A stretch of 64,000 nucleotides of DNA. Source: Escherichia coli. Its GTDB lineage: Bacteria > Pseudomonadota > Gammaproteobacteria > Enterobacterales > Enterobacteriaceae. Of the stretch, positions 24,494 to 64,000 are shown piece by piece (the stretch's first letter is position 1; every line of letters begins with the position of its first letter). Where the stretch lies: NCBI RefSeq assembly GCF_017348835.2, contig NZ_CP071375.1. One strand, 5' to 3'. The notes under the pieces are model-generated. The model saw only the letters and a list, made by a program, of their open reading frames with translations. It did no database searches and was not told the origin of the DNA. The translations under genes and the position numbers were made by a program.

Positions 24494-24555
24494 TTTTGGA
24501 GATTTTGGGGAGTTGAACCGCCCCGGGTTTCCTGGAGAGTGTTTTATCTGTGAAC

Positions 24556-25443
24556 TCAGGCTGCCAGATCATTATTTCCGATGGAAGCATAATAAGCTTT
24601 TTCTGCTTCTGCCGGAGGAATATGGCCCAGCCTTTCCAGCAATCGTCGATTGTTATACCAGTCCACCCACGTTAGTGTGGCCAGTTCCACTTCTGTCCGG
24701 TTTTTCCAGCTCTTACGGTGTATTACCTCCGCTTTGTAAAGACCATTGATGCTCTCAGCCATCGCGTTGTCATACGAGTCGCCAGTACTCCCTGTTGATG
24801 CCAGTAATCCGGCTTCCTTAAGCCGCTGCGTGTAGGCCAGCGATACATACTGAGAACCTTTATCACTGTGATGGATTGTGCCGGACGGCCGACGGGCCCA
24901 CAACGCCTGCTCCAGTGCATCCAGCACGAATGTTGTTTCCATGGATGATGAGACCTGCCATCCCACGATGTATCCGGCGAACACATCAATGATGAACGCC
25001 ACATAAACGAAGCCCTGCCATGTGCTTACCCAGGTAAAATCAGCCACCCACAACTGGTCTGGACGTTCTGCCACGAACTGACGGTTTACGCGGTCGCATG
25101 CGGCAACGGCTTTCCGGCTGACGGTAGTGCGGACCTTTTTACCCCGGAGAACACCGGCAAGTCCCATAACTGCCATGAGACGTGCCACAGTGCATCTGGC
25201 CACTCTGATACCTTCCCGTAACAACTGACGCCAGACTTTACGCACACCGTATACCTGGTGATTTTCATCGTATACGCGCTGTATCTCTTTCTTCAGCCAG
25301 TCATCGTGCTGCGCACGGGCACTGCGTTTATCCGGATGATGTCGCTGTTGCTGACAATGGTAATACGTTGACGGGGCAATATGCAGTTCGCTGCATACCG
25401 GTCCGACCCCGTACTGCTCACGCAGCTTATCCAGCAGTGGCAT
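24556..25443 (-). CDS. IS3-family transposase OrfB (DDE catalytic domain)
   Basis: 295 aa integrase-core ORF. Confidence 0.85.
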   Translation of the reverse strand: MPLLDKLREQYGVGPVCSELHIAPSTYYHCQQQRHHPDKRSARAQHDDWLKKEIQRVYDENHQVYGVRKVWRQLLREGIRVARCTVARLMAVMGLAGVLRGKKVRTTVSRKAVAACDRVNRQFVAERPDQLWVADFTWVSTWQGFVYVAFIIDVFAGYIVGWQVSSSMETTFVLDALEQALWARRPSGTIHHSDKGSQYVSLAYTQRLKEAGLLASTGSTGDSYDNAMAESINGLYKAEVIHRKSWKNRTEVELATLTWVDWYNNRRLLERLGHIPPAEAEKAYYASIGNNDLAA

Positions 25444-25769
25444 TATTTTTTCCAGAGGCGGTCGAACTCCGCCTTCGCAAAATAAGCGGAAGCCTGGCGA
25501 AGGATATCGTTACTGCGGCGCAGTTCACGATTTTCACGTTCCAGCTCTTTCAGACGCTGACGTTCAGCGGTGGTGAGTCCACCATCACCACTCCCGGTAT
25601 CCCGCTCATGCTGGCGAACCCAGACACGCAGAGTCTCCGGCGTACAGCCAATCTTTGGGGCAATGGAACAAATTGCCGCCCACTGTGAGTCATATTCATC
25701 CTGACTTTCCAGAACCATACGAATCGCCCGCTGACGGACTTCGGGGGAAAAACGAGTATTTTTAGTCAT
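25443..25769 (-). CDS. IS3-family transposase OrfA (HTH + leucine zipper)
   Basis: 108 aa, [33 protein letters not shown]... Confidence 0.85.
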
Positions 25770-25874
25770 CCTGTTTACCTCTTTCTCAGGGAGTTTAGTC
25801 TCCAGGATTTCCGGGGCGGTTCATTAAAGATTTTTTTGTGCATGCCGATAGTGCTTTTTTAAAAGGAGAAATCT

Positions 25875-26207
25875 ATGTCTGTCACAATTCAGGGAAATAC
25901 CTCAACCGTTATTTCAAACAACTCCGCCCCGGAAGGAACATCAGAAATAGCCAAAATCACAAGACAAATTCAGGTGCTGACTGAAAAGCTTGGGAAAATC
26001 TCATCGGAAGAGGGGATGACGACACAGCAGAAAAAAGAAATGGCTGCATTGGTACAGAAGCAAATTGAAAGCCTCAGGGCTCAACTGGAGCAGTTGTTAA
26101 GGCAGCAGGCAGAGAAAAAGAATGAAGACGCGACAGTTCAGCCTGATAAAAAAGAAGAGAAAAAAGACGATACAAATACCGCTGGCACCATTGATATTTA
26201 CGTCTAA
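25875..26207 (+). CDS. flxA: FlxA-like protein (110 aa)
   Basis: Length and coiled-coil-like sequence; Qin context. Confidence 0.6.
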   Translation: MSVTIQGNTSTVISNNSAPEGTSEIAKITRQIQVLTEKLGKISSEEGMTTQQKKEMAALVQKQIESLRAQLEQLLRQQAEKKNEDATVQPDKKEEKKDDTNTAGTIDIYV

Positions 26208-26221
26208 GTGACAGCCGTATT

Positions 26222-26244
26222 GTGGCCCTCATCGGGCCACTTTT
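26222..26244 (+). terminator. Rho-independent terminator after flxA
   Basis: gtggccc tcatc gggccac followed by TTTT. Confidence 0.65.
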
Positions 26245-26643
26245 CGCCATCAGCCTTTTCTTTAAAGACATATTATCTTTGTATCATTTCTGATAGTTAA
26301 CATTACAAGATATAAGTAATGGACGCACTCCCAATTAGTCTATTTAAATCGCCACGAGTTTAACTGACAACCCATGATCAATTATGAATTGCAACTATTT
26401 CTGTAGTCACTTTTGTGGGGACAGTCCACAAAACTGCCAACTTCCGCTTCTTGCTCTTAGCGGACATTAGCATAGGCTATTTACCATAACGCCTCATTAC
26501 GCGCACCGCCCAGACTGACTCAGCGCGTTTCTGGCATATCCCCGGTAAAACAAGTAACAAACCACCCGAAAATGAACACCAGAAACGCGACTTAAGAATC
26601 TACCCTATGAATGGATATGCACTCAACCGAATCGATCTTGGTT

Positions 26644-27985
26644 TCAATCTTTTTTATCGGGATCAGGCTTCTTTTTAGGTAACTTCGGGGGCTTAACTTG
26701 CTGATGACTTTGCGTTCGGCGCGTAAGCCAGGGATGGTCAGCTTTAGGTTTAACATAGTATTTTGAGCGTAAATCAATACGGGCATTATCCACTCGTTCA
26801 TGGACACTCTTTTCATCATCCAGTGGTATAGGCTCCGGGCCATCAACATACTTTTCCCAGCCCAGCGCTTTCCCGTCATACAGAACGTTAATTTCACCGT
26901 CAAAGTTCTCGCATACAGTAACAACCGAATGCCTAAGTCGATATCCCCGGCCCTCACTGCGTACCTGAAACGCACTGCTTTTGTACTGGAAAGTGAGATT
27001 TTTAGACAGAACGCGCTTCGCCTGTAGGCTGAAGATATAACCCAGTTCCTCTTCAGAATGGTGCACATCAAGATGAGCATTATCAGTAGTACGAGGCGAC
27101 GTAGCGAACCGGTTGTTATAGGCTTCAATAAAGGTCGGCAACCATGCATTTGCTGTTTCAATATCACTGATATTCTGAAGCCGCATTTCTTTGACCAGCC
27201 TGTCCTGTAGTGTCTGATTGGCGCGCTCTACCCGCCCTTTTGCCTGCGGGCTGTTGGCATGGATTGGCTCGATGCCCAGTGTCTTTATCGCACGAGTGAA
27301 CTGGGTCAGCTCACCTTCCCGCTCTGGGTTATTTACCCTGAATATACTGTGTCTATCAGAGTAGAGAGCGAGCGGTACGCCATGATCATTAAGGTAACCC
27401 CGGAGGGTTTCCATGTAAGCCCGGGTTGTTTCAGCAGGCACAAAACGCAACGCCATCAACGCACTGGTGGCATCATCAATGAAAACGATCAGTGTACATC
27501 TGGGGCCTCGATTTTCAAACCAGTCATGAGGTGAGCCATCAATCTGGATCAGTTCACCGTAAGATGGTCGTCGCATGCGGCGTTGATATATACGGGCAAT
27601 TTTACGACGGCGTTCACGCCATACCCCCCTCTTCTATCATCCACTTTCTGAGAGTTTCAACGGATAAAGATAAACCGTGTATCTCGCGCAATTTTTCGCA
27701 CGCAAACGTAGGTCCAAAATCAGCGTAACGGCCTTTGAGGAGTGAAATTACTGTTGCTCTGAATTCAGTAGAAAAGGAATTATTAGGACGCTTTCCACGT
27801 CGGTGGGAAACCAGACCAGAAGGCCCTTCATTTCTATACCGTTGCACCAGACGTTTAACCTGCCGAATAGAAATGCCAATGCGTGCCGCAGCTTGTTCCT
27901 GAGTAATATGTCGATTAATTGACTCCTGAATAATCTGAAGTCGGTGGAGTTCCTTATGACTCATCGTAACAGTTTCTTTGGTCAT
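26644..27985 (-). pseudogene. DDE transposase (integrase-core; IS481/ISNCY-like) split by a frameshift
   Basis: N-terminal HTH part 27614-27985 and catalytic part 26644-27576 are in different frames; junction at a C6/G6 run around 27624-27629. Confidence 0.65.
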
Positions 27986-38614: not shown

Positions 38615-41041
38615 ATGTCCAAAAATGAACGAATGGTGGGCATCAGCCGCAGAACACTCGTTAAATCTACCGCGATAGGTTCTCTGGCGCTGGCTGCAGG
38701 CGGTTTTTCTTTGCCGTTTACCCTGCGCAGTGCAGCAGCAGCGGTACAACAGGCCCGCGAAAAAGTGGTCTGGGGTGCCTGTTCCGTCAACTGTGGTAGC
38801 CGCTGTGCACTTCGTCTACATGTTAAAGATAATGAAGTGACCTGGGTGGAAACTGACAATACCGGCAGCGATGAGTACGGCAACCATCAGGTACGCGCCT
38901 GTTTGCGCGGTCGCTCCATCCGCCGGCGTATTAATCATCCCGATCGCTTGAATTACCCAATGAAACGCGTGGGTAAACGCGGTGAAGGCAAATTCGAACG
39001 GATTAGCTGGGATGAAGCCCTGGATACTATCGCCAGTAGCCTGAAGAAAACCGTCGAACAATATGGCAATGAGGCTGTATATATTCAGTACTCTTCGGGG
39101 ATCGTTGGCGGCAATATGACCCGCTCTTCGCCATCAGCCTCGGCGGTCAAACGCCTGATGAACTGCTACGGCGGTTCACTCAATCAGTATGGTTCCTACA
39201 GCACCGCACAAATTTCCTGTGCCATGCCCTACACCTACGGCAGTAATGATGGCAACAGCACCACGGATATTGAAAACAGCAAGCTGGTCGTGATGTTTGG
39301 TAACAACCCGGCAGAAACCCGCATGAGCGGCGGTGGCATCACTTATCTTCTTGAAAAAGCGCGCGAGAAATCGAACGCCAAAATGATTGTTATCGATCCG
39401 CGATATACCGATACGGCTGCTGGTCGTGAAGATGAATGGCTTCCTATTCGCCCGGGCACCGATGCCGCGCTGGTTGCGGGGATTGCCTGGGTATTGATTA
39501 ACGAAAATCTCGTTGATCAACCTTTTCTCGATAAATACTGCGTCGGCTATGACGAAAAAACCTTACCCGCAGATGCACCCAAAAATGGTCACTATAAAGC
39601 CTATATTCTTGGTGAAGGTGACGATAAAACAGCGAAAACGCCGCAGTGGGCTTCGCAAATTACCGGTATCCCGGTGGACCGTATCATCAAACTGGCGCGT
39701 GAAATTGGCACAGCAAAACCCGCTTATATCTGCCAGGGCTGGGGGCCGCAACGCCAGGCAAACGGCGAGCTGACTGCACGCGCTATTGCTATGTTGCCTA
39801 TTTTGACGGGCAATGTCGGCATCAGCGGCGGAAATAGTGGCGCGCGTGAGTCGACCTATACCATTACCATAGAGCGACTGCCGGTGCTGGATAATCCGGT
39901 CAAAACGTCAATTTCCTGCTTCAGCTGGACAGATGCTATCGATCATGGTCCGCAAATGACGGCAATCCGCGACGGCGTCCGCGGCAAAGATAAACTGGAT
40001 GTACCCATTAAGTTCATCTGGAACTACGCGGGAAATACCCTGGTTAATCAGCATTCTGACATCAACAAAACGCATGAAATTCTGCAAGACGAATCGAAAT
40101 GCGAAATGATTGTGGTCATCGAAAACTTTATGACCTCATCGGCAAAATATGCCGACATTCTGCTGCCAGACCTGATGACCGTTGAGCAGGAAGATATTAT
40201 TCCTAACGACTACGCCGGTAACATGGGATATCTCATTTTCCTCCAGCCAGTCACCAGCGAAAAATTCGAACGTAAACCGATTTACTGGATCCTGAGTGAA
40301 GTCGCGAAACGTCTTGGACCTGACGTCTATCAAAAGTTCACTGAAGGTCGCACGCAGGAACAATGGTTACAACATCTGTACGCCAAAATGCTTGCCAAAG
40401 ATCCGGCGTTACCATCTTACGACGAACTGAAAAAAATGGGTATCTATAAGCGTAAAGATCCCAATGGTCATTTTGTCGCCTACAAAGCATTTCGTGACGA
40501 CCCCGAGGCAAATCCACTTAAAACACCTTCCGGTAAGATTGAAATTTATTCCAGCAGGCTGGCGGAAATTGCCCGTACCTGGGAACTGGAAAAAGATGAA
40601 GTGATAAGCCCACTGCCAGTTTATGCCTCTACCTTTGAAGGCTGGGACTCACCTGAACGTAGAACCTTCCCACTGCAACTGTTTGGTTTCCATTACAAAT
40701 CCCGTACTCACTCGACCTACGGCAACATTGATGTCCTGAAAGCAGCCTGCCGTCAGGAGGTGTGGATCAACCCTATAGATGCACAGAAACGTGGGATTGC
40801 CAACGGCGATATGGTGCGGGTGTTTAACCATCGTGGCGAAGTTCGGCTACCAGCCAAAGTGACACCACGTATTCTCCCTGGAGTTAGCGCTATGGGCCAG
40901 GGAGCCTGGCACGAGGCCAATATGTCTGGCGATAAAATCGACCATGGAGGCTGTGTGAATACGCTAACCACTCTGCGCCCTTCACCACTGGCGAAGGGAA
41001 ACCCGCAGCACACGAATCTGGTCGAGATCGAAAAAATATAA
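38615..41041 (+). CDS. ynfE: Molybdopterin oxidoreductase catalytic subunit (DMSO/selenate-reductase paralogue)
   Basis: 808 aa; twin-arginine signal (SRRTLVKS); N-terminal Cys cluster. Confidence 0.85.
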   Translation: MSKNERMVGISRRTLVKSTAIGSLALAAGGFSLPFTLRSAAAAVQQAREKVVWGACSVNCGSRCALRLHVKDNEVTWVETDNTGSDEYGNHQVRACLRGRSIRRRINHPDRLNYPMKRVGKRGEGKFERISWDEALDTIASSLKKTVEQYGNEAVYIQYSSGIVGGNMTRSSPSASAVKRLMNCYGGSLNQYGSYSTAQISCAMPYTYGSNDGNSTTDIENSKLVVMFGNNPAETRMSGGGITYLLEKAREKSNAKMIVIDPRYTDTAAGREDEWLPIRPGTDAALVAGIAWVLINENLVDQPFLDKYCVGYDEKTLPADAPKNGHYKAYILGEGDDKTAKTPQWASQITGIPVDRIIKLAREIGTAKPAYICQGWGPQRQANGELTARAIAMLPILTGNVGISGGNSGARESTYTITIERLPVLDNPVKTSISCFSWTDAIDHGPQMTAIRDGVRGKDKLDVPIKFIWNYAGNTLVNQHSDINKTHEILQDESKCEMIVVIENFMTSSAKYADILLPDLMTVEQEDIIPNDYAGNMGYLIFLQPVTSEKFERKPIYWILSEVAKRLGPDVYQKFTEGRTQEQWLQHLYAKMLAKDPALPSYDELKKMGIYKRKDPNGHFVAYKAFRDDPEANPLKTPSGKIEIYSSRLAEIARTWELEKDEVISPLPVYASTFEGWDSPERRTFPLQLFGFHYKSRTHSTYGNIDVLKAACRQEVWINPIDAQKRGIANGDMVRVFNHRGEVRLPAKVTPRILPGVSAMGQGAWHEANMSGDKIDHGGCVNTLTTLRPSPLAKGNPQHTNLVEIEKI

Positions 41042-41098: not shown

Positions 41099-43524
41099 AT
41101 GATGAAAATCCATACCACAGAGGCGCTCATGAAGGCTGAAATCAGCCGTAGAAGTCTGATGAAAACCTCCGCACTTGGCAGTCTTGCGCTGGCAAGCAGT
41201 GCTTTCACTCTGCCATTTTCCCAAATGGTCCGGGCGGCAGAGGCTCCGGTAGAAGAGAAAGCGGTCTGGAGTTCCTGCACCGTTAACTGCGGGAGCCGCT
41301 GTCTGTTACGTTTGCATGTGAAAGATGACACCGTGTACTGGGTGGAGTCTGATACGACAGGTGACGACGTCTACGGTAATCATCAGGTTCGAGCGTGTTT
41401 ACGCGGTCGCTCTATCCGCCGACGGATGAATCATCCTGATAGGTTGAAATATCCCATGAAGCGCGTCGGCAAGCGCGGTGAAGGTAAATTTGAACGGATA
41501 AGTTGGAACGAAGCCCTGGATACCATCAGTGATAATCTTCGGCGGATCCTAAAAGATTACGGCAATGAGGCTGTACATGTCCTGTACGGAACAGGTGTAG
41601 ATGGCGGAAACATCACCAACTCAAACGTCCCGTACCGTCTGATGAACTCTTGCGGTGGTTTTCTCAGTCGCTATGGCAGCTACAGTACCGCACAGATCAG
41701 TGCCGCATGAGTTATATGTTCGGTGCCAATGATGGCAACAGCCCGGATGATATCGCCAATACGAAACTGGTCGTTATGTTCGGAAATAACCCGGCAGAAA
41801 CACGGATGAGCGGCGGTGGTGTCACTTACTACGTCGAGCAAGCCCGCGAACGTTCAAACGCACGCATGATCGTCATCGATCCACGTTATAACGACACAGC
41901 TGCCGGGCGTGAAGATGAATGGCTGCCCATTCGCCCTGGCACCGATGGCGCACTGGCCTGTGCGATTGCCTGGGTACTGATTACTGAAAACATGGTCGAA
42001 CAGCCATTTCTCGACAAATATTGTGTTGGTTATGATGAAAAAACGCTGCCCGCCAACGCACCACGTAACGCGCATTATAAAGCCTATATTCTGGGCGAAG
42101 GGCCTGACGGCATAGCTAAAACGCCGGAATGGGCAGCAAAAATCACCAGCATCCCGGCAGAAAAAATTATCCAGTTGGCGCGAGAGATCGGTTCAGCAAA
42201 ACCTGCTTATATTTGTCAGGGTTGGGGGCCACAACGACACTCCAACGGCGAACAAACATCCCGCGCTATTGCCATGCTTTCCGTTCTCACCGGTAACGTC
42301 GGCATAAACGGCGGCAACTCAGGCGTACGCGAAGGTAGCTGGGATCTGGGGGTAGAATGGTTTCCGATGCTCGAGAATCCTGTTAAAACGCAGATTTCCG
42401 TCTTTACATGGACAGATGCCATCGACCATGGTAAGGAAATGACCGCGACCCGTGATGGTGTTCGTGGAAAAGAAAAACTGGATGTCCCCATCAAGTTTTT
42501 ATGGTGCTACGCCAGTAACACATTGATCAATCAACATGGTGACATCAATCACACCCATGAGGTGCTTCAGGATGACAGCAAGTGCGAGATGATTGTTGGC
42601 ATTGACCACTTCATGACTGCCTCGGCTAAGTATTGCGATATCCTGTTGCCCGACCTGATGCCAACAGAGCAAGAAGACCTTATCTCTCATGAATCTGCCG
42701 GGAATATGGGCTATGTGATCCTCGCCCAACCCGCAACCTCAGCAAAATTTGAACGCAAACCCATCTACTGGATGCTGAGTGAAGTCGCCAAACGCTTAGG
42801 ACCGGACGTTTATCAAACCTTTACTGAAGGTCGCAGTCAGCATGAATGGATCAAATATCTCCATGCGAAAACGAAGGAACGTAACCCTGAGATGCCCGAC
42901 TACGAGGAGATGAAAACAACCGGGATCTTTAAGAAAAAATGCCCGGAAGAACACTACGTCGCTTTCCGCGCATTCCGTGAAGATCCACAGGCAAACCCGT
43001 TGAAAACACCTTCGGGGAAAATCGAAATTTATTCTGAACGACTGGCGAAGATTGCAGATACCTGGGAATTGAACAAAGATGAAATTATTCATCCCCTTCC
43101 TGCGTATACCCCAGGTTTTGATGGCTGGGACGATCCCCTGCGGAAAACCTATCCACTGCAGTTAACGGGCTTCCACTACAAAGCGCGTACCCACTCCAGC
43201 TACGGCAATATTGATGTGTTACAGCAGGCCTGCCCACAAGAGGTGTGGATCAACCCCATTGATGCTCAGGCTCGCGGTATCCGTCATGGCGATACCGTAC
43301 GGGTATTTAACAATAATGGAGAAATGCTGATTGCCGCAAAAGTGACTCCGCGTATTCTGCCTGGCGTTACCGCCATCGGGCAAGGTGCGTGGCTTAAAGC
43401 AGATATGTTTGGTGACCGGGTCGATCACGGCGGCAGTATCAATATTCTGACCTCTCACCGCCCTTCACCGCTGGCAAAGGGAAACCCGTCGCACAGCAAT
43501 CTTGTCCAGATCGAAAAGGTTTAA
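41099..43524 (+). pseudogene. ynfF: Second DMSO-reductase-family catalytic subunit, split by a frameshift near 41706
   Basis: ORFs 41099-41710 and 41650-43524 are N- and C-parts of one ynfE paralogue; stop TGA at 41708-41710. Confidence 0.75.
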
Positions 43525-43534: not shown

Positions 43535-44152
43535 ATGACCACACAATATGGATTTTTTATCGATTCCAGCCGCTGTACTGGCTGTAAAACCTGCGAACTG
43601 GCGTGCAAAGATTTTAAAGATCTTGGCCCGGAAGTCAGTTTCCGCCGTATTTATGAATATGCTGGCGGCGACTGGCAGGAAGATAATGGCGTCTGGCACC
43701 AGAACGTGTTCGCTTATTATCTCTCCATCTCCTGTAACCATTGCGATGACCCCGCATGTACAAAAGTCTGCCCCAGCGGCGCAATGCATAAGCGTGAAGA
43801 TGGCTTTGTGGTGGTTGATGAAGATGTTTGTATCGGCTGCCGCTACTGCCACATGGCTTGTCCGTACGGCGCACCACAGTACAATGCTGAAAAAGGGCAC
43901 ATGACGAAGTGCGATGGTTGTTATTCGCGCGTCGCCGAGGGGAAACAACCCATATGTGTCGAATCCTGCCCGCTGCGTGCACTTGAGTTCGGTCCAATTG
44001 AAGAGCTGCGCCAGAAGCACGGCACTCTTGCTGCCGTCGCGCCACTGCCGCGCGCGCATTTCACAAAACCCAATATCGTTATCAAACCTAACGCCAACAG
44101 CCGCCCGACCGGCGATACCACTGGTTATCTGGCTAATCCGGAGGAAGTGTAA
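43535..44152 (+). CDS. ynfG: Fe-S subunit (4x[4Fe-4S] ferredoxin-like)
   Basis: 205 aa with four Cys clusters. Confidence 0.85.
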   Translation: MTTQYGFFIDSSRCTGCKTCELACKDFKDLGPEVSFRRIYEYAGGDWQEDNGVWHQNVFAYYLSISCNHCDDPACTKVCPSGAMHKREDGFVVVDEDVCIGCRYCHMACPYGAPQYNAEKGHMTKCDGCYSRVAEGKQPICVESCPLRALEFGPIEELRQKHGTLAAVAPLPRAHFTKPNIVIKPNANSRPTGDTTGYLANPEEV

Positions 44153-44153
44153 A

Positions 44154-45008
44154 ATGGGAAATGGATGGCATGAATGGCCACTGGTTATCTTTACCGTATT
44201 GGGTCAATGCGTAGTAGGCGCGCTGATTGTTAGCGGAATTGGCTGGTTCGCCGCCAAAAATGACGCAGACCGTCAGCACATTGTTCGTGGCATGTTTTTC
44301 CTCTGGCTGTTGATGGGCATCGGGTTTATTGCCTCTGTCATGCACCTGGGATCGCCACTGCGGGCGTTTAACTCGCTGAATCGAATCGGAGCTTCTGGTC
44401 TGAGTAACGAGATTGCTGCCGGTTCCATATTTTTTGCCGTTGGCGGACTATGGTGGCTGGTGGCGGTCATCGGTAAAATGCCGCAAGCGTTGGGGAAACT
44501 CTGGTTACTTGTCAGCATGGCGCTCGGCGTCATTTTCGTCTGGATGATGACCTGCGTTTATCAAATCGACACTGTGCCAACCTGGCATAACGGTTACACT
44601 ACGCTGGCTTTCTTCCTGACGGTATTGTTGAGTGGTCCAATACTTGCTGCCGCAATTCTGCGGGCAGCCCGCGTTACATTTAATACCACACCATTTGCCA
44701 TCATTAGCGTTCTGGCGCTGATCGCTTGTGCCGGGGTGATTGTGCTGCAAGGTTTGTCTCTGTCGTCTATTCACTCATCCGTGCAACAAGCCAGCGCACT
44801 GGTACCAGATTACGCCTCCTTACAGGTCTGGCGTGTGGTATTGTTATGCGCAGGTCTAGGATGCTGGCTTTGTCCGCTCATACGTCGCCGTGAACCTCAC
44901 GTTGCCGGACTTATTCTGGGGTTAATCCTCATTCTTGGCGGTGAGATGATCGGGCGTGTGCTCTTTTATGGCCTGCACATGACGGTAGGAATGGCTATTG
45001 CAGGTTAA
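44154..45008 (+). CDS. ynfH: DmsC-like membrane anchor subunit
   Basis: 284 aa from MGNGWHEW; the ORF-track entry is over-extended upstream. Confidence 0.8.
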   Translation: MGNGWHEWPLVIFTVLGQCVVGALIVSGIGWFAAKNDADRQHIVRGMFFLWLLMGIGFIASVMHLGSPLRAFNSLNRIGASGLSNEIAAGSIFFAVGGLWWLVAVIGKMPQALGKLWLLVSMALGVIFVWMMTCVYQIDTVPTWHNGYTTLAFFLTVLLSGPILAAAILRAARVTFNTTPFAIISVLALIACAGVIVLQGLSLSSIHSSVQQASALVPDYASLQVWRVVLLCAGLGCWLCPLIRRREPHVAGLILGLILILGGEMIGRVLFYGLHMTVGMAIAG

Positions 45009-45050: not shown

Positions 45051-45665
45051 ATGACCCATTTTTCACAGCAAGATAATTTTTCTGTCGCGGCGCGCGTGTT
45101 GGGCGCGCTGTTTTATTACGCTCCAGAGAGTGCTGAAGCCGCACCTCTGGTTGCGGTACTCACCAGTGACGGCTGGGAAACTCAGTGGCCTCTACCAGAA
45201 GCGTCATTAGCGCCGCTGGTGACGGCTTTTCAGACACAGTGTGAAGAGACTCACGCCCAGGCCTGGCAGCGTTTGTTTGTCGGCCCGTGGGCACTGCCGT
45301 CTCCGCCGTGGGGGTCGGTCTGGCTGGATCGCGAATCTGTGCTGTTTGGCGATTCAACATTGGCACTTCGTCAGTGGATGCGCGAGAAAGGCATTCAGTT
45401 TGAAATGAAGCAAAACGAACCGGAAGATCATTTTGGTTCACTGCTGTTGATGGCTGCGTGGTTGGCGGAGAATGGTCGCCAGACAGAATGCGAAGAATTG
45501 CTGGCATGGCACCTTTTTCCGTGGTCAACACGTTTTCTTGATGTTTTTATCGAAAAAGCAGAACACCCTTTCTACCGTGCACTGGGTGAACTGGCTCGCT
45601 TAACGCTGGCGCAATGGCAATCACAACTGTTAATTCCTGTCGCGGTTAAACCGCTGTTTCGATAG
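45051..45665 (+). CDS. dmsD: Tat proofreading chaperone DmsD
   Basis: 204 aa from MTHFSQQDNF. Confidence 0.85.
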   Translation: MTHFSQQDNFSVAARVLGALFYYAPESAEAAPLVAVLTSDGWETQWPLPEASLAPLVTAFQTQCEETHAQAWQRLFVGPWALPSPPWGSVWLDRESVLFGDSTLALRQWMREKGIQFEMKQNEPEDHFGSLLLMAAWLAENGRQTECEELLAWHLFPWSTRFLDVFIEKAEHPFYRALGELARLTLAQWQSQLLIPVAVKPLFR

Positions 45666-50243: not shown

Positions 50244-51496
50244 GTGAGCCGTACTACAACTGTTGATGGCGCTCCGGCAAGCGACACTGACAAGCAAAGC
50301 ATTTCTCAGCCAAATCAATTTATTAAACGCGGTACGCCGCAATTTATGCGCGTTACCCTGGCGCTGTTCTCTGCCGGACTGGCAACATTTGCACTTCTCT
50401 ATTGTGTACAGCCTATCCTTCCGGTGCTTTCGCAGGAGTTTGGCTTAACGCCCGCGAACAGTAGTATTTCACTGTCCATTTCCACGGCGATGTTGGCTAT
50501 TGGTTTGCTGTTTACTGGCCCCCTATCCGATGCCATTGGTCGCAAACCAGTGATGGTCACGGCGCTACTGTTGGCCTCCATTTGTACGTTACTTTCGACA
50601 ATGATGACCAGCTGGCACGGCATTTTGATTATGCGCGCCTTGATTGGGCTTTCGTTAAGTGGCGTGGCAGCTGTTGGCATGACTTATCTTAGCGAGGAAA
50701 TCCACCCCAGTTTCGTGGCCTTTTCGATGGGGTTGTATATCAGCGGCAACTCAATTGGCGGCATGAGCGGACGCTTAATTAGCGGTGTCTTCACGGACTT
50801 TTTCAACTGGCGAATTGCTCTGGCGGCAATCGGTTGTTTCGCGCTGGCCTCGGCGTTGATGTTCTGGAAAATCCTCCCGGAATCACGCCATTTTCGCCCG
50901 ACTTCGCTGCGCCCTAAGACGTTATTTATCAACTTTCGTCTGCACTGGCGTGACCGGGGATTACCGTTATTGTTCGCAGAAGGCTTTTTGCTGATGGGGT
51001 CGTTCGTCACGCTGTTTAATTACATCGGCTATCGGTTGATGCTCTCCCCCTGGCATGTCAGTCAGGCCGTGGTTGGCTTATTATCGCTGGCTTATTTGAC
51101 CGGTACATGGAGCTCACCCAAAGCCGGAACCATGACCACCCGCTATGGGCGTGGTCCAGTGATGTTGTTTTCGACGGGGTTATGCTGTTTGGTTTACTGA
51201 TGACCTTATTCAGCTCGCTGTGGCTGATCTTTGCCGGAATGTTACTCTTCTCAGCAGGATTCTTCGCAGCCCACTCAGTTGCCAGCAGCTGGATCGGCCC
51301 CCGCGCAAAACGCGCTAAAGGCCAGGCCTCCTCGCTGTATCTGTTCAGTTACTATCTGGGGTCGAGTATTGCCGGGACGCTGGGTGGTGTTTTCTGGCAT
51401 AACTATGGCTGGAACGGCGTCGGCGCATTTATTGCTCTGATGCTGGTCATTGCTCTGCTGGTCGGGACGCGTTTGCATCGTCGTCTGCACGCCTGA
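50244..51496 (+). pseudogene. ynfM: MFS transporter YnfM split by a frameshift near 51176-51179
   Basis: ORFs 50244-51200 and 51107-51496 are contiguous parts of one MFS protein in different frames; junction at a G4 run. Confidence 0.7.
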
Positions 51497-54456: not shown

Positions 54457-54621
54457 ATGGCAAAGCCGATCATCACGCTCAATGGCCTAAAAATCGTCAT
54501 TATGTTGGGAATGCTGGTCATTATTCTCTGCGGTATCCGTTTTGCCGCCGAGATCATCGTGCCGTTTATTCTCGCATTATTTATTGCTGTTATATATAAC
54601 TTATTTCACTTAACGCATTGA
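54457..54621 (+). pseudogene. tqsA: tqsA (AI-2 exporter) 5' fragment, truncated after codon 46 by an inserted element
   Basis: [46 protein letters not shown], then 8 unrelated codons and a stop; phage-like DNA follows. Confidence 0.8.
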
Positions 54622-55045
54622 TTTAATTAAATAATTTGCACCACAAAAAGTGCCAAAAATCGCAAAATGACTACACCAGTGACTACACCGTTCGGTGCAC
54701 CGTATGAAACAACGTGGAACAAATAGACACAAGAAATATACAGGCGGATCATCTTTCCAGGGGGAAGCGCACCAATTCATGAGGGGCGTTAATGTCGATA
54801 TGGGGATCCCCACCTACCGGAATTTTTTTCCGGTTAAACGTTAATCAGGCTGGTGGGCTTTACCTGTTCGGTAGGTGTTATGATTATCGTAATACCTTTC
54901 CCCCAATGGGGTAAAAGCATCAACCGTAACGAAAGTCGTTATGGTTGCCACCGATACCCCAAATTTGGGTATCACGAGTAAGCCCCAAAATCTGGGTGTT
55001 ACTCTTACTACCCAAACTACGGGTAGTTTCCGTAGTTTCATGGTC

Positions 55046-55065
55046 GAGTTGCAGATCTGCAACTC
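55046..55065. repeat. 20 bp perfect palindrome (gagttgcagatctgcaactc) within a repeat-rich stretch
   Basis: Read directly; neighbouring CCCAAA(N)GGGT-type repeats at 54957-55030. Confidence 0.6.
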
Positions 55066-55319
55066 CCCCATTAACCACAGGCGAATTTCCGCCTTCGGTC
55101 ATTCCTTAATCATCTGCGTAATCATAATGATTATTCAGCAAGCGCAATTTTGCGCTTTGCTTAAAGTTCAGCGAGTTACCGCGCCGACTTCCTCAAATTG
55201 AGGTTTCCGAAAATATCAGCGGGTTAGCGATTAAGCTGACCATTAATTAAACTGCGAAAATGTCGTAGTTGTGAGGGGTGTAGCCAACCCATTTTTGGGC
55301 CGTCGGGAATATCAACCAG

Positions 55320-55601
55320 TTACCGCCGCAACCGCTCCGGCTTCTTCCAGTGGTACGTTATTTTCTCCTTCTCCCGATACATCTCCACGCGGCGACGGTA
55401 GGCCAGCAACTCAAGAACTCTGGTTCGTATGTTGCGCATATCCACGGCATTAAGTTCTATACCATCACGGCGCATCACCTCCGCAACAACACGCGCATAA
55501 TTTTCAGCGGTCACGCTGTCCGGCTGCATGGCCTGTTCGTCAACCTGCTGGCTGATTCCGGCAACGCGGCGGATTAATCCCAGTATTTCGGCTTCTATCA
55601 T
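55320..55601 (-). CDS. Hypothetical protein (93 aa)
   Basis: ORF only. Confidence 0.3.
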   Translation of the reverse strand: MIEAEILGLIRRVAGISQQVDEQAMQPDSVTAENYARVVAEVMRRDGIELNAVDMRNIRTRVLELLAYRRRVEMYREKEKITYHWKKPERLRR

Positions 55602-55665
55602 TGTGCCCCCATCGTTCTGAAAGTCTGGTGTCGTCGGGTCCTTCCTGGAATTATGGCCCGTTACG

Positions 55666-55677
55666 GGGCGGCGACCT
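55666..55677 (+). other. Lambda-type cosN sequence GGGCGGCGACCT (plus orientation) with lambda-like cosB-type flank
   Basis: Exact 12-mer; downstream flank resembles the lambda left end as recalled (TTTATGAAAATTTT..., AAAAGAAACGACA). Confidence 0.7.
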
Positions 55678-55856
55678 CGCGGTTTTTATCTGTTTATGAA
55701 AATTTTTCTGGAAAAAGCATGTCGGTACTTCTCGAACATAACTATTTGTTTTTAAATAGATACACAATAAAAAGAAACGACACGGTAATCATCTAAAATG
55801 GCGATTTATGACGCTTTCATGTCGTTTCTCAGTTTTGTTCAATAATTGCGCGTCTG

Positions 55857-56369
55857 TTACTCGCCTTTCTTCTGTAGCAACTTTTCCGGTACGTTTCCGG
55901 TTGTTTCTTTCAAGTAATCAGCCAGTATCTGTGGGAGGTTGTCGGCAACTCTGGCACTGGCATTACAGGCTTTAACCACTTCCCTTTTAAGCCTATCCAG
56001 CATGGCGTGGGTAATCTGTGGGAAGCTCCTTTGCATAGTAAGCGGGAGGCTGTCCATGATTGATGAAATCTGACTCGCCAGCTTTGAAAGCGCGTACAGG
56101 CAAAACTCAGTATCAATCACGTCACCGCGATCGCGCTCGTTTTTAAGTTCCTGCGCCTCCGCCTGTGCTGTCAGTAATCTGATCCTGACTCGTAAGAGTT
56201 CATCATCATCAATATCGCCTTTGTCGTTTGTAAGCTGGCTAATTGCATTGTTAACCCTATTGTCTATCACGCTGGCAACATCGTAAAACGCCTCACGGCC
56301 TTTACGTTCAACGGGAGTCACTCCCCACTTGTCGAACGCTGTCGCACTTACACGGCAGCTTTTCGCCAT
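55857..56369 (-). CDS. Small-terminase (Nu1)-like protein with diverged N-terminal DNA-recognition region
   Basis: 170 aa; central/C-terminal region closely resembles NohA at 16716-17261 (LTAQAEAQELKNERD...); N-terminal ~45 aa diverged and shortened. Confidence 0.7.
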   Translation of the reverse strand: MAKSCRVSATAFDKWGVTPVERKGREAFYDVASVIDNRVNNAISQLTNDKGDIDDDELLRVRIRLLTAQAEAQELKNERDRGDVIDTEFCLYALSKLASQISSIMDSLPLTMQRSFPQITHAMLDRLKREVVKACNASARVADNLPQILADYLKETTGNVPEKLLQKKGE

Positions 56370-56399
56370 GTTTTTTTGTTCATCAGGTGCGATTTCATT

Positions 56400-56437
56400 A
56401 ATACACCAACTTAATTACTGCTTCAGGTTGGTGTATT
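56400..56437. repeat. 11 bp inverted repeat (AATACACCAAC N16 GTTGGTGTATT) between cos and the terS-like start
   Basis: Read directly; lies in the terS-like leader. Confidence 0.55.
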
Positions 56438-56531
56438 GTTTGCATCTTTCCCTTTTCATTCATAAAGATAGAGCAAACAACAAAACCACCACCACCCCCC
56501 TGAAAAGGCTCATAAATAGCGAAAAACCGCG

Positions 56532-56543
56532 AGGTCGCCGCCC
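56532..56543 (-). other. Second lambda-type cosN sequence (minus orientation), about 165 bp upstream of the terS-like gene
   Basis: Exact 12-mer AGGTCGCCGCCC on the plus strand; inverted relative to 55666-55677. Confidence 0.7.
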
Positions 56544-56604
56544 CGTAACGGGTCCATATGCCGGAAAGGTCCCGTAAAAAAAGCCGGATTTCTCCGGCCT
56601 TGTC

Positions 56605-57018
56605 TCAGATGGTTTTCAGTATGCGATCGATGTCGCCGTCATCGCCCTGGTTTCTGCCATCGTATGCCATGCCAGCTGATACGGCTTGCGGGCTGTGCAT
56701 GTCCATAAAGTTTTCAAAGGCTGCGGTAAGCTCTGGTGCAACCTTTGGGCGCTCCTGCTCTATGGTCATGTTCAGGATTTCACGAGCATTATCGACGCTA
56801 ATACATGGCACGTTTGCCATTGCACGTAACAGCGGCTGATAGTCTTTATGCTCATGAAGCGCCATAATCGCATCAGCGCGCGGCTTGTCCTGCTCTTCCA
56901 GTTTGTTTAGTTGATATACGGCCTCATAGGTTGATAAACCTCTGTCAGCCATTGCCCGCGCTTCGGCTTTAAATTTACTCGCCAGCGGTAGCGTCATGAT
57001 GCTTTCATTCGTTGCCAT
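56605..57018 (-). CDS. Hypothetical head-module protein (137 aa)
   Basis: ORF between the gpD-like and terS-like genes; no recognisable motif. Confidence 0.3.
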   Translation of the reverse strand: MATNESIMTLPLASKFKAEARAMADRGLSTYEAVYQLNKLEEQDKPRADAIMALHEHKDYQPLLRAMANVPCISVDNAREILNMTIEQERPKVAPELTAAFENFMDMHSPQAVSAGMAYDGRNQGDDGDIDRILKTI

Positions 57019-57030
57019 CGTTCCCCCTGC

Positions 57031-57430
57031 TTATCGGGCCAGCGGCTGAACGGATACGCCGGAACCCGCAAAGGCGGCGCATTTTTTCGCATCGGTGTCG
57101 ACGCTCTCAGGCCAGTTAACGGCGGCAATATTGAATATCCCCGTCTTGTAACACTGTGCTGATTTCTGCTTTGACGTGTCCACAGGATACGAAGTCAGAT
57201 AAACAGCCTTGCCAGATTCCTGACCATCCCACGGCTTAAACTCGCCATTGTCCGCCAGCATCAGCGGGGTAAATTCCTGAATAACGCCAGCATCAGCGGG
57301 GTAAATTCCTGAATAACGCCAGCATCAGCGGGGTAAATTCCTGAATAACGCCAGCATCAGCGGCAAAATGTACCAGCGTCGTGGCGACCTGCTGACTGCC
57401 TGCAAATAACTCAATGTATGGAGTGTCCAT
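57031..57430 (-). pseudogene. Lambda gpD-like head decoration gene disrupted by a 64 bp tandem duplication
   Basis: 5' part (MDTPYIELFAG...TPLML) and 3' part (ADNGEFKPWDG...YKTGIF...AFAG) resemble lambda gpD; frame is restored by removing two 32 bp repeat copies. Confidence 0.65.
57254..57363. repeat. Tandem repeat: 32 bp unit (gccagcatcagcggggtaaattcctgaataac) x3 plus a 14 bp partial copy
   Basis: Perfect copies at 57254-57285, 57286-57317, 57318-57349; partial at 57350-57363. Confidence 0.9.
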
Positions 57431-57441
57431 AGAATCCCCCG

Positions 57442-58497
57442 TTAAGCAATTTTGACAGTAACAAATTTGCGAATATCTGCCGGAACCGGCTGCGGTGCGC
57501 TGTGCGTCTGCACGTACTCAATCGCCGGATCTCCGTCCTCAATCCAGTTTTTCGGGTAGTACATGTTTTGCGTTGCCCCCGTTCTTACTGCGTCCTGATC
57601 CATAATCGCACCATAGGCCACCAGCCCTTTATTGTTGGTGTTGCCCAGGACAAGCAAATCAGGCTCAAGGAAATATTTTTCTGTGCCGTCGCTGTCAGTG
57701 TATTTGCCGGAATAGACGATAAGGGCCAGATCACCAAGATAGCCTTTAAAGCTCACCACTTCGCCCAGGTTTTTACATGCCAGCTCTGCGGCGGATTCTG
57801 AACCACGGGAGAGATCGTACAGTTCACGGAATTTTTTAAAGCTGCGTAACATGCGCCATACATCAACGCCCATAATCATGACGTTGGCGGGGCAACCTGC
57901 CTGATCTGCGTATAGTTCAATGTCATATATTGGGTCGTGTATGTCTTTATCCTGCTCAGACCATTTTTTACCGTCGGCCTGCTCTATGATGTTTTTTTCC
58001 GGTATCTTCCAGTCGATTTCATAGCGTTCTATGCCTTCGCCCTCAATGATGTTTTTTCCGGTCGTTACCGCATTCACCGCCAGCCATTCAACGTGTGCCT
58101 TAATGGCGTTTATCTGGCGGCGCATGTTGCCAGTAATCAGGCGCATACGGCGGTAGGTAGGATCGTTAAGCTGTGCCGGATCTTCTCCAGCCATGCGCAT
58201 TATTGTTTTTAATGGATCGATTTCGTGTTTTGGCTTCATGTAGCCAGGGCGGATAATGCTGGTTTCGTACCCTTTATCGCGCTGAACCTGGCTGCCAACC
58301 ATAGGCGAACAAAACGCCGACATAGTGACTTCTTCAATATCCAGGTTATCTAACATGATGTCCTGCGTGTTGAATGTCGCCACGTTCGGGAAAAACAGCG
58401 CGGTAAACAGCGGACTAAATTTAAATTCCGCAATATCCTCGCGATTCAGGTACGCGAAAAGCTGGTGTGTGTTAAGTGCTATTGCTTTGACTGCCAT
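57442..58497 (-). CDS. Major capsid protein, lambda gpE homologue
   Basis: 351 aa; shared blocks KFxPLF..LFF, PGYxKPKHE, DPxYRR, SxKGxxGDxAIVVYSG, YPKNW..GDPA, SAP with lambda gpE as recalled. Confidence 0.8.
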   Translation of the reverse strand: MAVKAIALNTHQLFAYLNREDIAEFKFSPLFTALFFPNVATFNTQDIMLDNLDIEEVTMSAFCSPMVGSQVQRDKGYETSIIRPGYMKPKHEIDPLKTIMRMAGEDPAQLNDPTYRRMRLITGNMRRQINAIKAHVEWLAVNAVTTGKNIIEGEGIERYEIDWKIPEKNIIEQADGKKWSEQDKDIHDPIYDIELYADQAGCPANVMIMGVDVWRMLRSFKKFRELYDLSRGSESAAELACKNLGEVVSFKGYLGDLALIVYSGKYTDSDGTEKYFLEPDLLVLGNTNNKGLVAYGAIMDQDAVRTGATQNMYYPKNWIEDGDPAIEYVQTHSAPQPVPADIRKFVTVKIA

Positions 58498-58736
58498 TAT
58501 TCGCCCCCATAATTTTTGTGCATCCCAAGCGCCGCAAGTAAATAAGATCGCACAAGTGAACCTATCGACGGCTCCGGCGTCATCAGCGGATCCAGTCCAG
58601 CCGCAACGCCAGCTTCATAGTTTTTTTTGTGGCGCTGCTTGAGCACCTCCACGATTTCGGGGCTTATGTACACCGAAACACCGCCTTTTTTCTCTTCAGC
58701 CATAGTAAGAAATTCCTCTTCGACTAAAAAAATCAT
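58497..58736 (-). CDS. Hypothetical protein
   Basis: ORF only; start may be an internal Met (MAEEKK). Confidence 0.3.
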   Translation of the reverse strand: MIFLVEEEFLTMAEEKKGGVSVYISPEIVEVLKQRHKKNYEAGVAAGLDPLMTPEPSIGSLVRSYLLAALGMHKNYGGE

Positions 58737-58954
58737 AACTGGATGTTTATCCAGTCCTGATTATAATCAGAATTGCATTTTATGCAATGATATTGAGTTA
58801 TGTTGCAAATTATGAAATGATTATCCCGATCACGAACGCCAGTGCATCCAAAAACCTCATATGCAAAAGCCCGATAAGAACCCTCTGACCTTATCGGGCT
58901 TTTTTTGGGCGCAAAAAAGCCGGATTGCTCCGGCTATGTGTGCTGTGTGCTGGC

Positions 58955-59179
58955 TCAGTCTCTGATCTCTTTCAGAAATTCTATCAATGCATCTATCTGT
59001 TCAGGATTTACCGCCAGCATTTCACCGGATAGAGCACATCTCACAAAACCATGCTGATCCTTTTCAATCAGTGCGCCCGTCTCCAGGAATGCGCGGTAAT
59101 CATTGATGCTCATCGTCTCCATGTTGTCAGCATGGTATTTATCACGCTGTTTTAATATCTCATCAAATTTCATCGGCAT
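58955..59179 (-). CDS. Hypothetical protein (74 aa)
   Basis: ORF only. Confidence 0.3.
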   Translation of the reverse strand: MPMKFDEILKQRDKYHADNMETMSINDYRAFLETGALIEKDQHGFVRCALSGEMLAVNPEQIDALIEFLKEIRD

Positions 59180-59305
59180 TGTTTTTTTCCTCTGTTGTGT
59201 CTGTTTGTTTCAGATAGTAACTATGCCTGACCGTGACGAAAACCCGGTAATGCGCCATACCGTTTCAACTGGTGCAAAAAAAGCCGTATTTCTCCGGCTG
59301 TTTGA

Positions 59306-59578
59306 TTAGCTGTCCTGGTAATTGCGCCATATTTCATCACCAGCACCATCTATACCCATTTCGGCATAAGTGCGATCGACTGCCTTTTTCAGGTCTCCGA
59401 AATTATCCGGCGGCTCCGGTGCCCTCTGTGCCTTCCTTGAACATTCCAGCCGTCGCATCGTGATGTGATGCCGTTCCTTGTCTGTCTCCACCAGCTGCAT
59501 GACTTCACCCCATCGCGCCGCCGCCCTCCGGTAAAAGCCTTTCGCCTCCAGTTCCTCCGCTATGCGGTCATGTACCAT
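59306..59578 (-). CDS. PerC-family transcriptional activator-like protein (Pch-like)
   Basis: MVHDRIAEELEAKGFYRRAAARWGEVM... resembles the PerC/Pch N-terminal signature from memory; start at the internal Met of the ORF. Confidence 0.6.
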   Translation of the reverse strand: MVHDRIAEELEAKGFYRRAAARWGEVMQLVETDKERHHITMRRLECSRKAQRAPEPPDNFGDLKKAVDRTYAEMGIDGAGDEIWRNYQDS

Positions 59579-59588
59579 CGTCACCCCC

Positions 59589-59999
59589 TCAGAACGAAAT
59601 ATCATCACCGTAAGGGTCATCGCCTCCCGCTGGTGGCTGATTACCCTGTGTGCCTGTGGTTTTGCGTCTGTTCCCGCCAGGAAGTGCCGCACGGGCACTG
59701 ATTACGCTGTCTGCAATAACCTGATAACCCTGCCGCGTTTCCCCATTCTGTCCGGTCCACTGGCTGACCTGCATCGTGCCGGATACGCTGGCAACGTCGC
59801 CTTTTTGATGTTTAGCCAGGAAGTCGGCCTGCTTACCAAATGCGATGACCGATAGCCATAACGTCGCCTGCCCATCCTGCGCCTGACTACATGGCAGCGA
59901 TACCGCCATACGCGCCAGCGTCATCGGTGTACCCTTGCTGGTCTGTTTTACCTGCTGGTCGTCCACCAGCCGCCCGTAAGCCGCTATCTGTGCTGTCAT
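59589..59999 (-). CDS. SSB-like single-stranded DNA-binding protein
   Basis: 136 aa with Gly/Pro-rich tail ending in the acidic DDISF (compare SSB DDIPF). Confidence 0.55.
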   Translation of the reverse strand: MTAQIAAYGRLVDDQQVKQTSKGTPMTLARMAVSLPCSQAQDGQATLWLSVIAFGKQADFLAKHQKGDVASVSGTMQVSQWTGQNGETRQGYQVIADSVISARAALPGGNRRKTTGTQGNQPPAGGDDPYGDDISF

Positions 60000-60304
60000 G
60001 CCGTCTGCTCTCCGGTTTTAACGTTGATGGTTGTTACCTGTTCCGCTTCGGCAATCTCCCGTTCTGTCAACGTGGCAAAGTTTGCCGCTGCTGTGGTCAT
60101 GAATGCGCTTATCAGTTCGGGATGCTCCTTCGCGTATCCTTCCCCCGCGTGGCGGTCTATCGTTCTGATTGCCACCTTTAAAGCCAGTTCAGCCATATCT
60201 AACGCCTTATATTTCGGCTCTGTTCTGTCTCTGCGTTTTTGGGTCATTTCTCGCAACCTCTCACTTTTTCGCCTCACTTTTTCAAGCGTCTCACTTCGTC
60301 GCAA
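59996..60304 (-). CDS. Hypothetical protein
   Basis: ORF overlaps the SSB-like start by 4 bp. Confidence 0.3.
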   Translation of the reverse strand: MRRSETLEKVRRKSERLREMTQKRRDRTEPKYKALDMAELALKVAIRTIDRHAGEGYAKEHPELISAFMTTAAANFATLTEREIAEAEQVTTINVKTGEQTA

Positions 60305-60447
60305 TTGGGATTTTTGGTTTTTCTATGTGTGTGTTTCATAAGTATTTTTTTACCCCTCACTTTTGAGGATGTATACAGGTAAAAAAGTGAGGGAGAGCAG
60401 GCTAATTTTGGCCCTCTTTCTATCCACCTCGCTTTTGCTCCTCACTT

Positions 60448-62150: not shown

Positions 62151-62155
62151 TATTT

Positions 62156-62389: not shown

Positions 62390-62390
62390 A

Positions 62391-63407: not shown

Positions 63408-63428
63408 CTAATAACGAGGAAATCAGAT

Positions 63429-63608: not shown

Positions 63609-63650
63609 TCACTATCAGCGCCGTGGTGTGAGGTATTACGGCGCATTGCT

Positions 63651-63962: not shown

Positions 63963-64000
63963 ATGCCTGAAAAACCCCAATTTTGTGGTTTTCCAGTCTC

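What the first reader, a model, noticed from the sequence alone, without database searches (positions are those of the whole stretch)
41650..41712. ynfF (second DMSO-reductase-like catalytic subunit) is split by a single-base frameshift
The ynfE paralogue downstream is in two frames: 41099-41710 ends with a TGA right after SYSTAQISAA, and the continuation (MSYMFGANDGN...) is in another frame. One extra base around 41706-41707 would restore an ~807 aa protein. ynfG, ynfH and dmsD are intact.
Basis: seen in the sequence. Interest (0 to 1): 0.45.

Follow-up and report, generated by a model that had tools for sequence, protein, structure and literature searches.

The report
Frameshifted ynfF pseudogene in E. 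coli
One missing base has broken ynfF, the second of two duplicate selenate-reductase genes, in a pig-associated E. coli lineage; the mutation is real, but it is an ordinary gene loss that public annotation already records.

Summary
ynfF (window 41099/41102-43524, + strand) lacks one A. Other E. coli read GCC GCA ATG AGT; the window reads GCC GCA TGA at 41702-41710. This leaves a 203-aa ORF and, in the -1 frame, a 605-aa ORF whose ATG (41707) overlaps the stop as ATGA. Restoring the A gives an 807-aa YnfF identical to a protein found intact on 36 public contigs.

It is not an assembly error. The same deletion is in two complete genomes, PE164 (pig, China) and F2_81 (pig, Australia). It is also on at least 24 other contigs, including assemblies made directly from SRR, ERR and DRR read sets. 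The allele is rare: 2 of 5292 complete E. coli genomes. RefSeq already annotates it as "ynfF, frameshifted".

No recoding signal is present, so this is a recent, lineage-specific pseudogene. ynfE, ynfG, ynfH and dmsD are intact, so the enzyme probably still works through YnfE.

Two minor points stand out. The split loses no residue. The closest intact-ynfF relatives carry a stop in ynfE instead, so the two copies were lost reciprocally. Interest is low.

The parts
38615..41041 (+). ynfE, the intact paralogous catalytic subunit (808 aa)
   Evidence: Full-length ORF, 4 aa different from K-12 YnfE, no internal stop. Annotated as ynfE in PE164.
41102..43524 (+). ynfF pseudogene, whole extent from the RefSeq start (an alternative ATG lies at 41099)
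   Evidence: 100% identical over 2426 nt to the 'ynfF, frameshifted' pseudogenes of PE164 and F2_81.
41099..41710 (+). N-terminal fragment ORF (203 aa). It holds the Tat signal, the Fe4S4 domain and the first ~86 positions of the molybdopterin domain, including the predicted Mo-ligand Ser195.
   Evidence: Translation. Pfam: PF10518 weak, PF04879 and PF00384 model positions 1-86. Alignment to Rhodobacter DMSO reductase 1EU1 places its Ser147 on the S of GSYSTAQ.
41707..41710 (+). Lesion site. The single A at 41707 stands where intact alleles have AA. The new stop TGA (41708-41710) overlaps the ATG (41707-41709) as ATGA.
   Evidence: Sequence. Comparison with K-12, RM12761, L013 and L014.
41707..43524 (+). 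C-terminal fragment ORF (605 aa, MSYMFG...). It holds the rest of the molybdopterin domain and the Molydop_binding domain, and has no Tat signal.
   Evidence: Pfam PF00384 model positions 102-353 and PF01568. The exact protein P0001 is called on 26 contigs. No Shine-Dalgarno match upstream (dG +0.4 kcal/mol).
43535..44152 (+). ynfG, Fe-S subunit, intact
   Evidence: 205 aa, identical to K-12 YnfG.
44154..45008 (+). ynfH, membrane anchor, intact
   Evidence: 284 aa, 4 aa different from K-12.
45051..45665 (+). dmsD, Tat proofreading chaperone, intact
   Evidence: 204 aa, identical to K-12 DmsD.

Best explanation
ynfF in this E. coli lineage is a recent pseudogene. One of the two As at the Ala202-Met203 codon junction (GCA ATG) was deleted. 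That puts TGA in frame straight after Ala202, and the remaining 605 codons fall in the -1 frame. The full-length, Tat-exported molybdoenzyme subunit YnfF is therefore not made. The Ynf selenate/tellurate reductase most likely still works through the intact paralogue YnfE together with YnfG, YnfH and DmsD, so the loss is probably close to neutral. Shown: the lesion, its reality, its rarity, its inheritance within one lineage, and the absence of any other defect in the gene. Inferred: loss of YnfF function and compensation by YnfE.
For: Sequence and translations show the deletion relative to K-12 and RM12761. The same deletion allele is 100% identical in PE164 and F2_81, both annotated 'frameshifted' by PGAP. 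Only 2 of 5292 complete E. coli genomes match an 80-nt probe across the site exactly; the listed non-exact hits align over 81 bases, i.e. with the extra base. The exact C-fragment protein was read on 24 contigs (26 on record) from NCBI, ENA and Logan. All eight shown loci, four NCBI assemblies and four Logan read-set assemblies, carry the deletion and differ from the window by 0-5 mismatches over 7.5-9.8 kb. The window is not PE164 itself (SNP at 38570 and an IS3 rearrangement), so it is a further independent assembly. The repaired protein is exactly a known intact YnfF (P0016, 36 contigs). L013 and L014 are 99.92-99.93% identical to the window over 10.4 kb, and their only gap is the extra A. 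The four amino-acid variants therefore predate the frameshift, and the frameshift is the only lesion. The break falls inside PF00384, 7 residues after the predicted Mo-ligand Ser, and separates the Tat signal from three quarters of the protein. No slippery heptamer lies in frame, the site is not in a homopolymer, no Shine-Dalgarno sequence precedes the ATG, and Rfam gives no relevant hit. [quoted passage not shown]
Against: No expression or activity data exist for this strain. The split is unusually clean: the two ORFs together encode every residue of the intact protein, and stop and start overlap as ATGA, an arrangement that can allow termination-reinitiation. Production of both pieces, and some residual function, therefore cannot be excluded from sequence alone. 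There are too few substitutions since the frameshift (0-5 per 7.5-9.8 kb) to test for relaxed selection.
Confidence: 0.9

Rival explanations
1. Sequencing or assembly error: the genome really has GCAATG and ynfF is intact.
For: PE164 shows several other 'frameshifted' genes in the same 64 kb (rrrQ, ynfM, terminase small subunit, head decoration protein). That pattern can indicate long-read indel errors.
Against: The site is an AA dinucleotide, not a homopolymer. The identical deletion is in two complete genomes from different laboratories and countries. It is also in at least 24 further contigs, including Logan assemblies made from SRR9203409, ERR3970200, SRR11484303 and DRR634072. The window is a further assembly distinct from PE164.
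Confidence: 0.02
2. A functional split gene. The 203-aa N-fragment carries the Tat signal, the FS0 cluster and the Mo-ligand Ser. The 605-aa C-fragment is made by termination-reinitiation at the ATGA overlap. The two pieces assemble, bind Mo-bisMGD and are exported together, so YnfF activity is retained.
For: No residue is lost: fragment 1 ends ...SAA and fragment 2 begins MSYMFG, exactly the intact sequence. Stop and start overlap as ATGA. Gene callers report both pieces in every assembly shown. Hitch-hiking on a partner's Tat signal is established for this enzyme class, as DmsB rides on DmsA (established knowledge). A sub-lineage that also has ynfE disrupted keeps both ynfF fragments open.
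Against: The cut lies in a strongly conserved active-site segment inside one domain, not at a domain boundary. No Shine-Dalgarno sequence precedes the ATG, so reinitiation would probably be inefficient. The allele is confined to one very young clade (2 of 5292 genomes; 0-5 mismatches per 7.5-9.8 kb), so intact ORFs carry no information about selection. ynfF is also lost in other ways in many E. coli, which suggests it is dispensable.
Confidence: 0.05
3. Programmed recoding: a -1 ribosomal frameshift, transcriptional slippage, or TGA read as selenocysteine restores full-length YnfF.
For: Some molybdopterin oxidoreductases (formate dehydrogenases) carry in-frame TGA-selenocysteine, and IS3 transposases nearby use programmed frameshifts. 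Nothing at this site itself supports the idea.
Against: No X XXY YYZ heptamer lies in frame anywhere in ORF1, and the site is not in a homopolymer run. Rfam finds no relevant RNA element. After the TGA the zero frame does not continue the protein, and the intact codon here is ATG (Met), not a Sec position. The frameshift is absent from 5290 of 5292 genomes, whereas programmed events are conserved.
Confidence: 0.01
4. Phase variation: a reversible on/off switch of ynfF by slipped-strand mispairing.
For: A one-base indel is the class of change seen in contingency loci.
Against: The tract is only two As in the intact allele. All members of the lineage examined carry the same state. The intact state occurs only in a sister lineage that is distinguishable by other SNPs.
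Confidence: 0.01

Closest known systems
E. coli K-12 YnfF (b1588), DmsA-paralogous Mo-bisMGD catalytic subunit of the YnfEFGH selenate/tellurate reductase
   Same: Same locus and synteny. The repaired protein is 803/807 identical. It has the same Tat signal, Fe4S4, Molybdopterin and Molydop_binding architecture.
   Different: The reading frame is broken after codon 202 by a 1-bp deletion, so no full-length product is encoded.
RefSeq pseudogenes LZG51_RS12830 (E. coli PE164) and CPH39_RS11380 (E. coli F2_81), 'ynfF, frameshifted'
   Same: 100% nucleotide identity over the whole gene, including the deletion. This is the same allele.
   Different: None in ynfF. F2_81 also has ynfE disrupted at the position matching window 40011. 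PE164 differs from the window by one SNP (38570) and an IS3 rearrangement.
Other ynfF inactivations in E. coli: IS3 insertion in many O145 genomes, and internally deleted ynfF in strains such as E138
   Same: The same gene is lost while ynfG, ynfH and dmsD are kept.
   Different: The lesions are independent and of different kinds (IS insertion, multi-hundred-base deletions). The window's lesion is a single-base deletion that loses no codons.
Sister allele with ynfE Gln45->stop and intact ynfF (L013 in GCA_025377845.1, L014 in GCA_002226495.1)
   Same: 99.92-99.93% identical to the window over 10.4 kb. The ynfF protein is identical once the missing A is restored.
   Different: The other paralogue is the one knocked out: CAA->TAA at the position matching window 38747.

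Membership tests
YnfF / DmsA-type Mo-bisMGD catalytic subunit (orthology) | Position in the ynfEFGH-dmsD operon between ynfE and ynfG | tested here: met
   The gene order in the window matches K-12 and PE164.
YnfF / DmsA-type Mo-bisMGD catalytic subunit (orthology) | Tat signal + Fe4S4 (PF04879) + Molybdopterin (PF00384) + Molydop_binding (PF01568) domains | tested here: met
   All are present but spread over two ORFs. The Tat_signal hit is weak (E = 0.027), with an SRRSLMK motif.
YnfF / DmsA-type Mo-bisMGD catalytic subunit (orthology) | High identity to the characterised K-12 YnfF | tested here: met
   The repaired translation is 803/807 identical.
YnfF / DmsA-type Mo-bisMGD catalytic subunit (functional gene) | Uninterrupted reading frame of ~807 codons | tested here: not met
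   TGA at 41708-41710, with the remainder in the -1 frame.
Genuine frameshift pseudogene, as opposed to an artefact | The lesion is reproduced in independent assemblies and read sets | tested here: met
   PE164, F2_81 and all eight shown loci (four NCBI assemblies, four Logan read-set assemblies), out of 24 contigs read, carry it.
Genuine frameshift pseudogene, as opposed to an artefact | An intact ancestral allele exists that differs only by the indel | tested here: met
   P0016 equals the repaired protein exactly. L013 and L014 differ in ynfF by the extra A plus 1-2 synonymous SNPs.
Programmed -1 ribosomal frameshift | Slippery heptamer X XXY YYZ at the shift site | tested here: not met
   None lies in frame in ORF1.
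Programmed -1 ribosomal frameshift | The frameshifted arrangement is conserved across homologues | tested here: not met
   Only 2 of 5292 genomes have it.
Selenocysteine (TGA) recoding | The protein continues in the same frame after TGA, at a position that is Sec or Cys in homologues | tested here: not met
   The continuation is in another frame, and the homologous codon is ATG (Met).
Phase-variable contingency locus | Simple-sequence or homopolymer tract at the indel | tested here: not met
   Only AA in the intact allele. The longest runs in the gene are A6 and lie elsewhere.
Translationally coupled split gene | Overlapping stop/start (ATGA) | tested here: met
   41707-41710.
Translationally coupled split gene | Both polypeptides are produced and assemble into an active enzyme | not testable with these tools
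   This needs proteomics or enzyme assays.

The most novel reading that the evidence does not exclude
The deletion converted ynfF into a naturally occurring two-piece molybdoenzyme. The N-fragment carries the Tat signal, FS0 and the Mo-ligand Ser. The C-fragment is made by termination-reinitiation at the ATGA overlap. Together the two pieces contain every residue of the intact protein, so they might assemble, bind cofactor and be co-exported, keeping activity. If so, activity would persist even in the sub-lineage whose ynfE is disrupted.
Probability: 0.05. Interest if true: 0.4.

Novelty: already known. Interest (0 to 1): 0.08.

Why it matters
It matters little beyond strain-level annotation. 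It documents decay of a redundant anaerobic reductase paralogue in a pig-associated E. coli lineage. Taken with the sister lineage's ynfE nonsense mutation and the many other ynfF lesions in E. coli, it supports the view that YnfE and YnfF are functionally redundant and that one copy is expendable. In practice, metabolic models and pangenome tables should treat ynfF as absent in this lineage. In the sub-lineage that also has ynfE disrupted, the whole Ynf reductase should be treated as absent.

Tried and rejected
Assembly error was rejected because many independent assemblies carry the same deletion.

Programmed frameshift was rejected. There is no slippery heptamer and the site is not in a homopolymer. 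Rfam gave only a chance sub-threshold snoRNA hit elsewhere in the gene.

Selenocysteine read-through was rejected because the continuation is in the wrong frame and the intact codon is Met.

A Shine-Dalgarno-driven restart was rejected: dG to the anti-SD is +0.4 kcal/mol, against -4.4 to -9.5 for the genuine starts in the operon.

A test for relaxed selection after the frameshift was considered. It has no power, because there are only 0-5 mismatches per 7.5-9.8 kb within the lineage, and the four amino-acid differences from K-12 predate the lesion.

Exact look-ups of the 202-aa and 203-aa N-fragments found nothing. The reason is that gene callers start that fragment at a later ATG, giving a 193-aa product.

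Full report
**Observation.** The window holds the E. coli operon ynfE-ynfF-ynfG-ynfH-dmsD on the + strand. ynfE (38615-41041) is an intact 808-codon ORF. The next gene is in two frames. ORF 41099-41710 encodes 203 aa ending ...YGSYSTAQISAA, followed by TGA at 41708-41710. ORF 41650-43524 carries the continuation MSYMFGANDGNS... from the ATG at 41707. Intact alleles in K-12 MG1655 and O145:H28 RM12761 read GCCGCAATGAGT where the window reads GCCGCATGAGT. One of the two As at the GCA|ATG codon junction (Ala202|Met203) is therefore missing. Restoring it gives an 807-aa protein with no stop.

**Is it real?**
- The 2426-nt gene is 100% identical, deletion included, in two complete RefSeq genomes: PE164 (pig, Nanjing) and F2_81 (pig, Australia).
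- An 80-nt probe across the site matches exactly in only those 2 of 5292 complete E. coli genomes. The listed non-exact hits align over 81 bases, i.e. with the extra base.
- The window is not PE164 itself. It differs by a SNP at 38570 and by an IS3 rearrangement at about 24.5-27.1 kb. It is otherwise 100% identical to PE164 over 25 kb.
- The exact 605-aa C-terminal product (P0001) is on record on 26 contigs from NCBI, ENA and Logan.
- Eight retrieved loci all contain the deletion. They include Logan assemblies of SRR9203409, ERR3970200, SRR11484303 and DRR634072. They differ from the window by 0-5 mismatches over 7.5-9.8 kb.

The site is an AA dinucleotide, not a homopolymer. An assembly artefact is therefore excluded for practical purposes. 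This is an inherited mutation of one young lineage.

**Ancestral state.** The repaired protein is exactly a known intact YnfF (P0016, 36 contigs). Two such loci, L013 and L014, are 99.92-99.93% identical to the window over 10.4 kb. Their only gap is the extra A, and ynfF otherwise differs by 1-2 synonymous SNPs. The four amino-acid differences from K-12 (N136, E300, K445, N658) therefore predate the frameshift, and the frameshift is the only lesion. This is a recent inactivation.

**What the break does.**
- The N-fragment holds the Tat signal (weak Pfam hit, RR motif), the Fe4S4 domain and the first 86 model positions of PF00384.
- The C-fragment holds PF00384 positions 102-353 and PF01568.
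- Alignment to Rhodobacter DMSO reductase (1EU1) puts its Ser147 on the Ser of GSYSTAQ, which is Ser195 of YnfF. Ser147 is the Mo ligand by established knowledge.

The cut is therefore seven residues past the predicted Mo ligand, in a conserved active-site segment rather than at a domain boundary.

**No recoding signal.** There is no in-frame X XXY YYZ heptamer, no relevant Rfam element and no Shine-Dalgarno sequence before the ATG at 41707 (dG +0.4 kcal/mol, against -4.4 to -9.5 for the real starts in the operon). The TGA is not a Sec codon, because the homologous codon is ATG and the zero frame does not continue the protein.

**Most likely consequence (inferred).** Full-length YnfF is not made. 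ynfE, ynfG, ynfH and dmsD are intact. In Salmonella, YnfF contributes little to selenate reduction, and a delta-ynfF strain relies on YnfE alone (PMC5203670). The reductase is therefore probably retained through YnfE, and the loss is probably near-neutral.

**A curiosity.** Stop and start overlap as ATGA, and the two ORFs together encode every residue of the intact protein. Termination-reinitiation could keep ribosomes on the mRNA, limiting polarity on ynfGH-dmsD, and could yield both fragments. A functional two-piece enzyme cannot be excluded, but it is unlikely given where the cut falls. I put it at about 5%.

**Context.** ynfF loss is common in E. coli.
- Many O145 genomes, among them O145:H28 strains, carry an IS3 inside the gene.
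- 577 of 5316 complete genomes lack 80% coverage of the gene in one place. One example is E138, whose ynfF is internally deleted and annotated as frameshifted, and whose ynfE is cut by ISEcp1.
- The closest relatives with intact ynfF (L013, L014) carry a CAA->TAA stop at ynfE codon 45 instead. That is a reciprocal loss of paralogues, which fits redundancy.
- Within the frameshift lineage, a sub-lineage (F2_81, L005, L009-L012) also has ynfE disrupted. Homology to the window ends at 40011, and DNA bearing an integrase or IS3 lies upstream. That leaves no intact catalytic gene in those strains.

**Verdict.** The feature is an ordinary lineage-specific pseudogene. RefSeq already annotates it as 'ynfF, frameshifted'. 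Novelty: already known. Interest: low.

Noticed in passing
window 50244-51496 (lesion at ~51176-51179): ynfM (MFS transporter) is also frameshifted: a G5 run in K-12 is G4 here. The sequence is identical in PE164 and F2_81, and both are annotated 'frameshifted'.
   Followed up: partly
L013 1646-1648 and L014 1646-1648 (matching window 38747-38749): The closest relatives with intact ynfF carry CAA->TAA at ynfE codon 45, soon after the Tat signal region. The two paralogues are therefore knocked out reciprocally in sister lineages.
   Followed up: partly
L002, L005, L009-L012, junction matching window 40011 inside ynfE: A sub-lineage with the ynfF frameshift also has ynfE disrupted at a single position. 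Upstream lies DNA carrying a phage-type integrase or IS3. The junction-proximal sequences are related but not identical between strains, which suggests site-specific integration of related elements.
   Followed up: partly
window 24513-27106: The IS3-family element lies in the opposite orientation to PE164, and about 1.28 kb of extra sequence follows it. The window's genome is therefore a distinct strain or assembly of the same lineage.
   Followed up: partly
window 38570: A C/T polymorphism 45 nt upstream of the ynfE start. It is T in PE164 and L007, and C in the window, L006, L008, L013, L014 and K-12.
   Followed up: no
window ~54457-64000: tqsA (AI-2 transporter) is reduced to a 144-nt N-terminal stub (~54457-54600). 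Beyond it lies a phage-like element (major capsid, RepA helicase, Icd-like, PerC) whose terminase-small and head-decoration genes are annotated as frameshifted in PE164. tqsA is annotated without a pseudogene flag at the corresponding place in F2_81, although only part of it fell inside the stretch viewed.
   Followed up: no
window ~13200-34000: A Qin-like defective prophage with several decayed genes as annotated in PE164: rrrQ frameshifted, cspF and ydfJ partial, and several internal-stop ORFs.
   Followed up: no
E. coli complete genomes (e.g. L019 = NZ_AP022351.1 2500738-2510310): About 11% of complete E. coli genomes (577 of 5316) lack 80% of ynfF in one place, and many O145 genomes, among them O145:H28 strains, have an IS3 in ynfF. 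In E138, ynfF is internally deleted and ynfE is cut by ISEcp1.
   Followed up: partly
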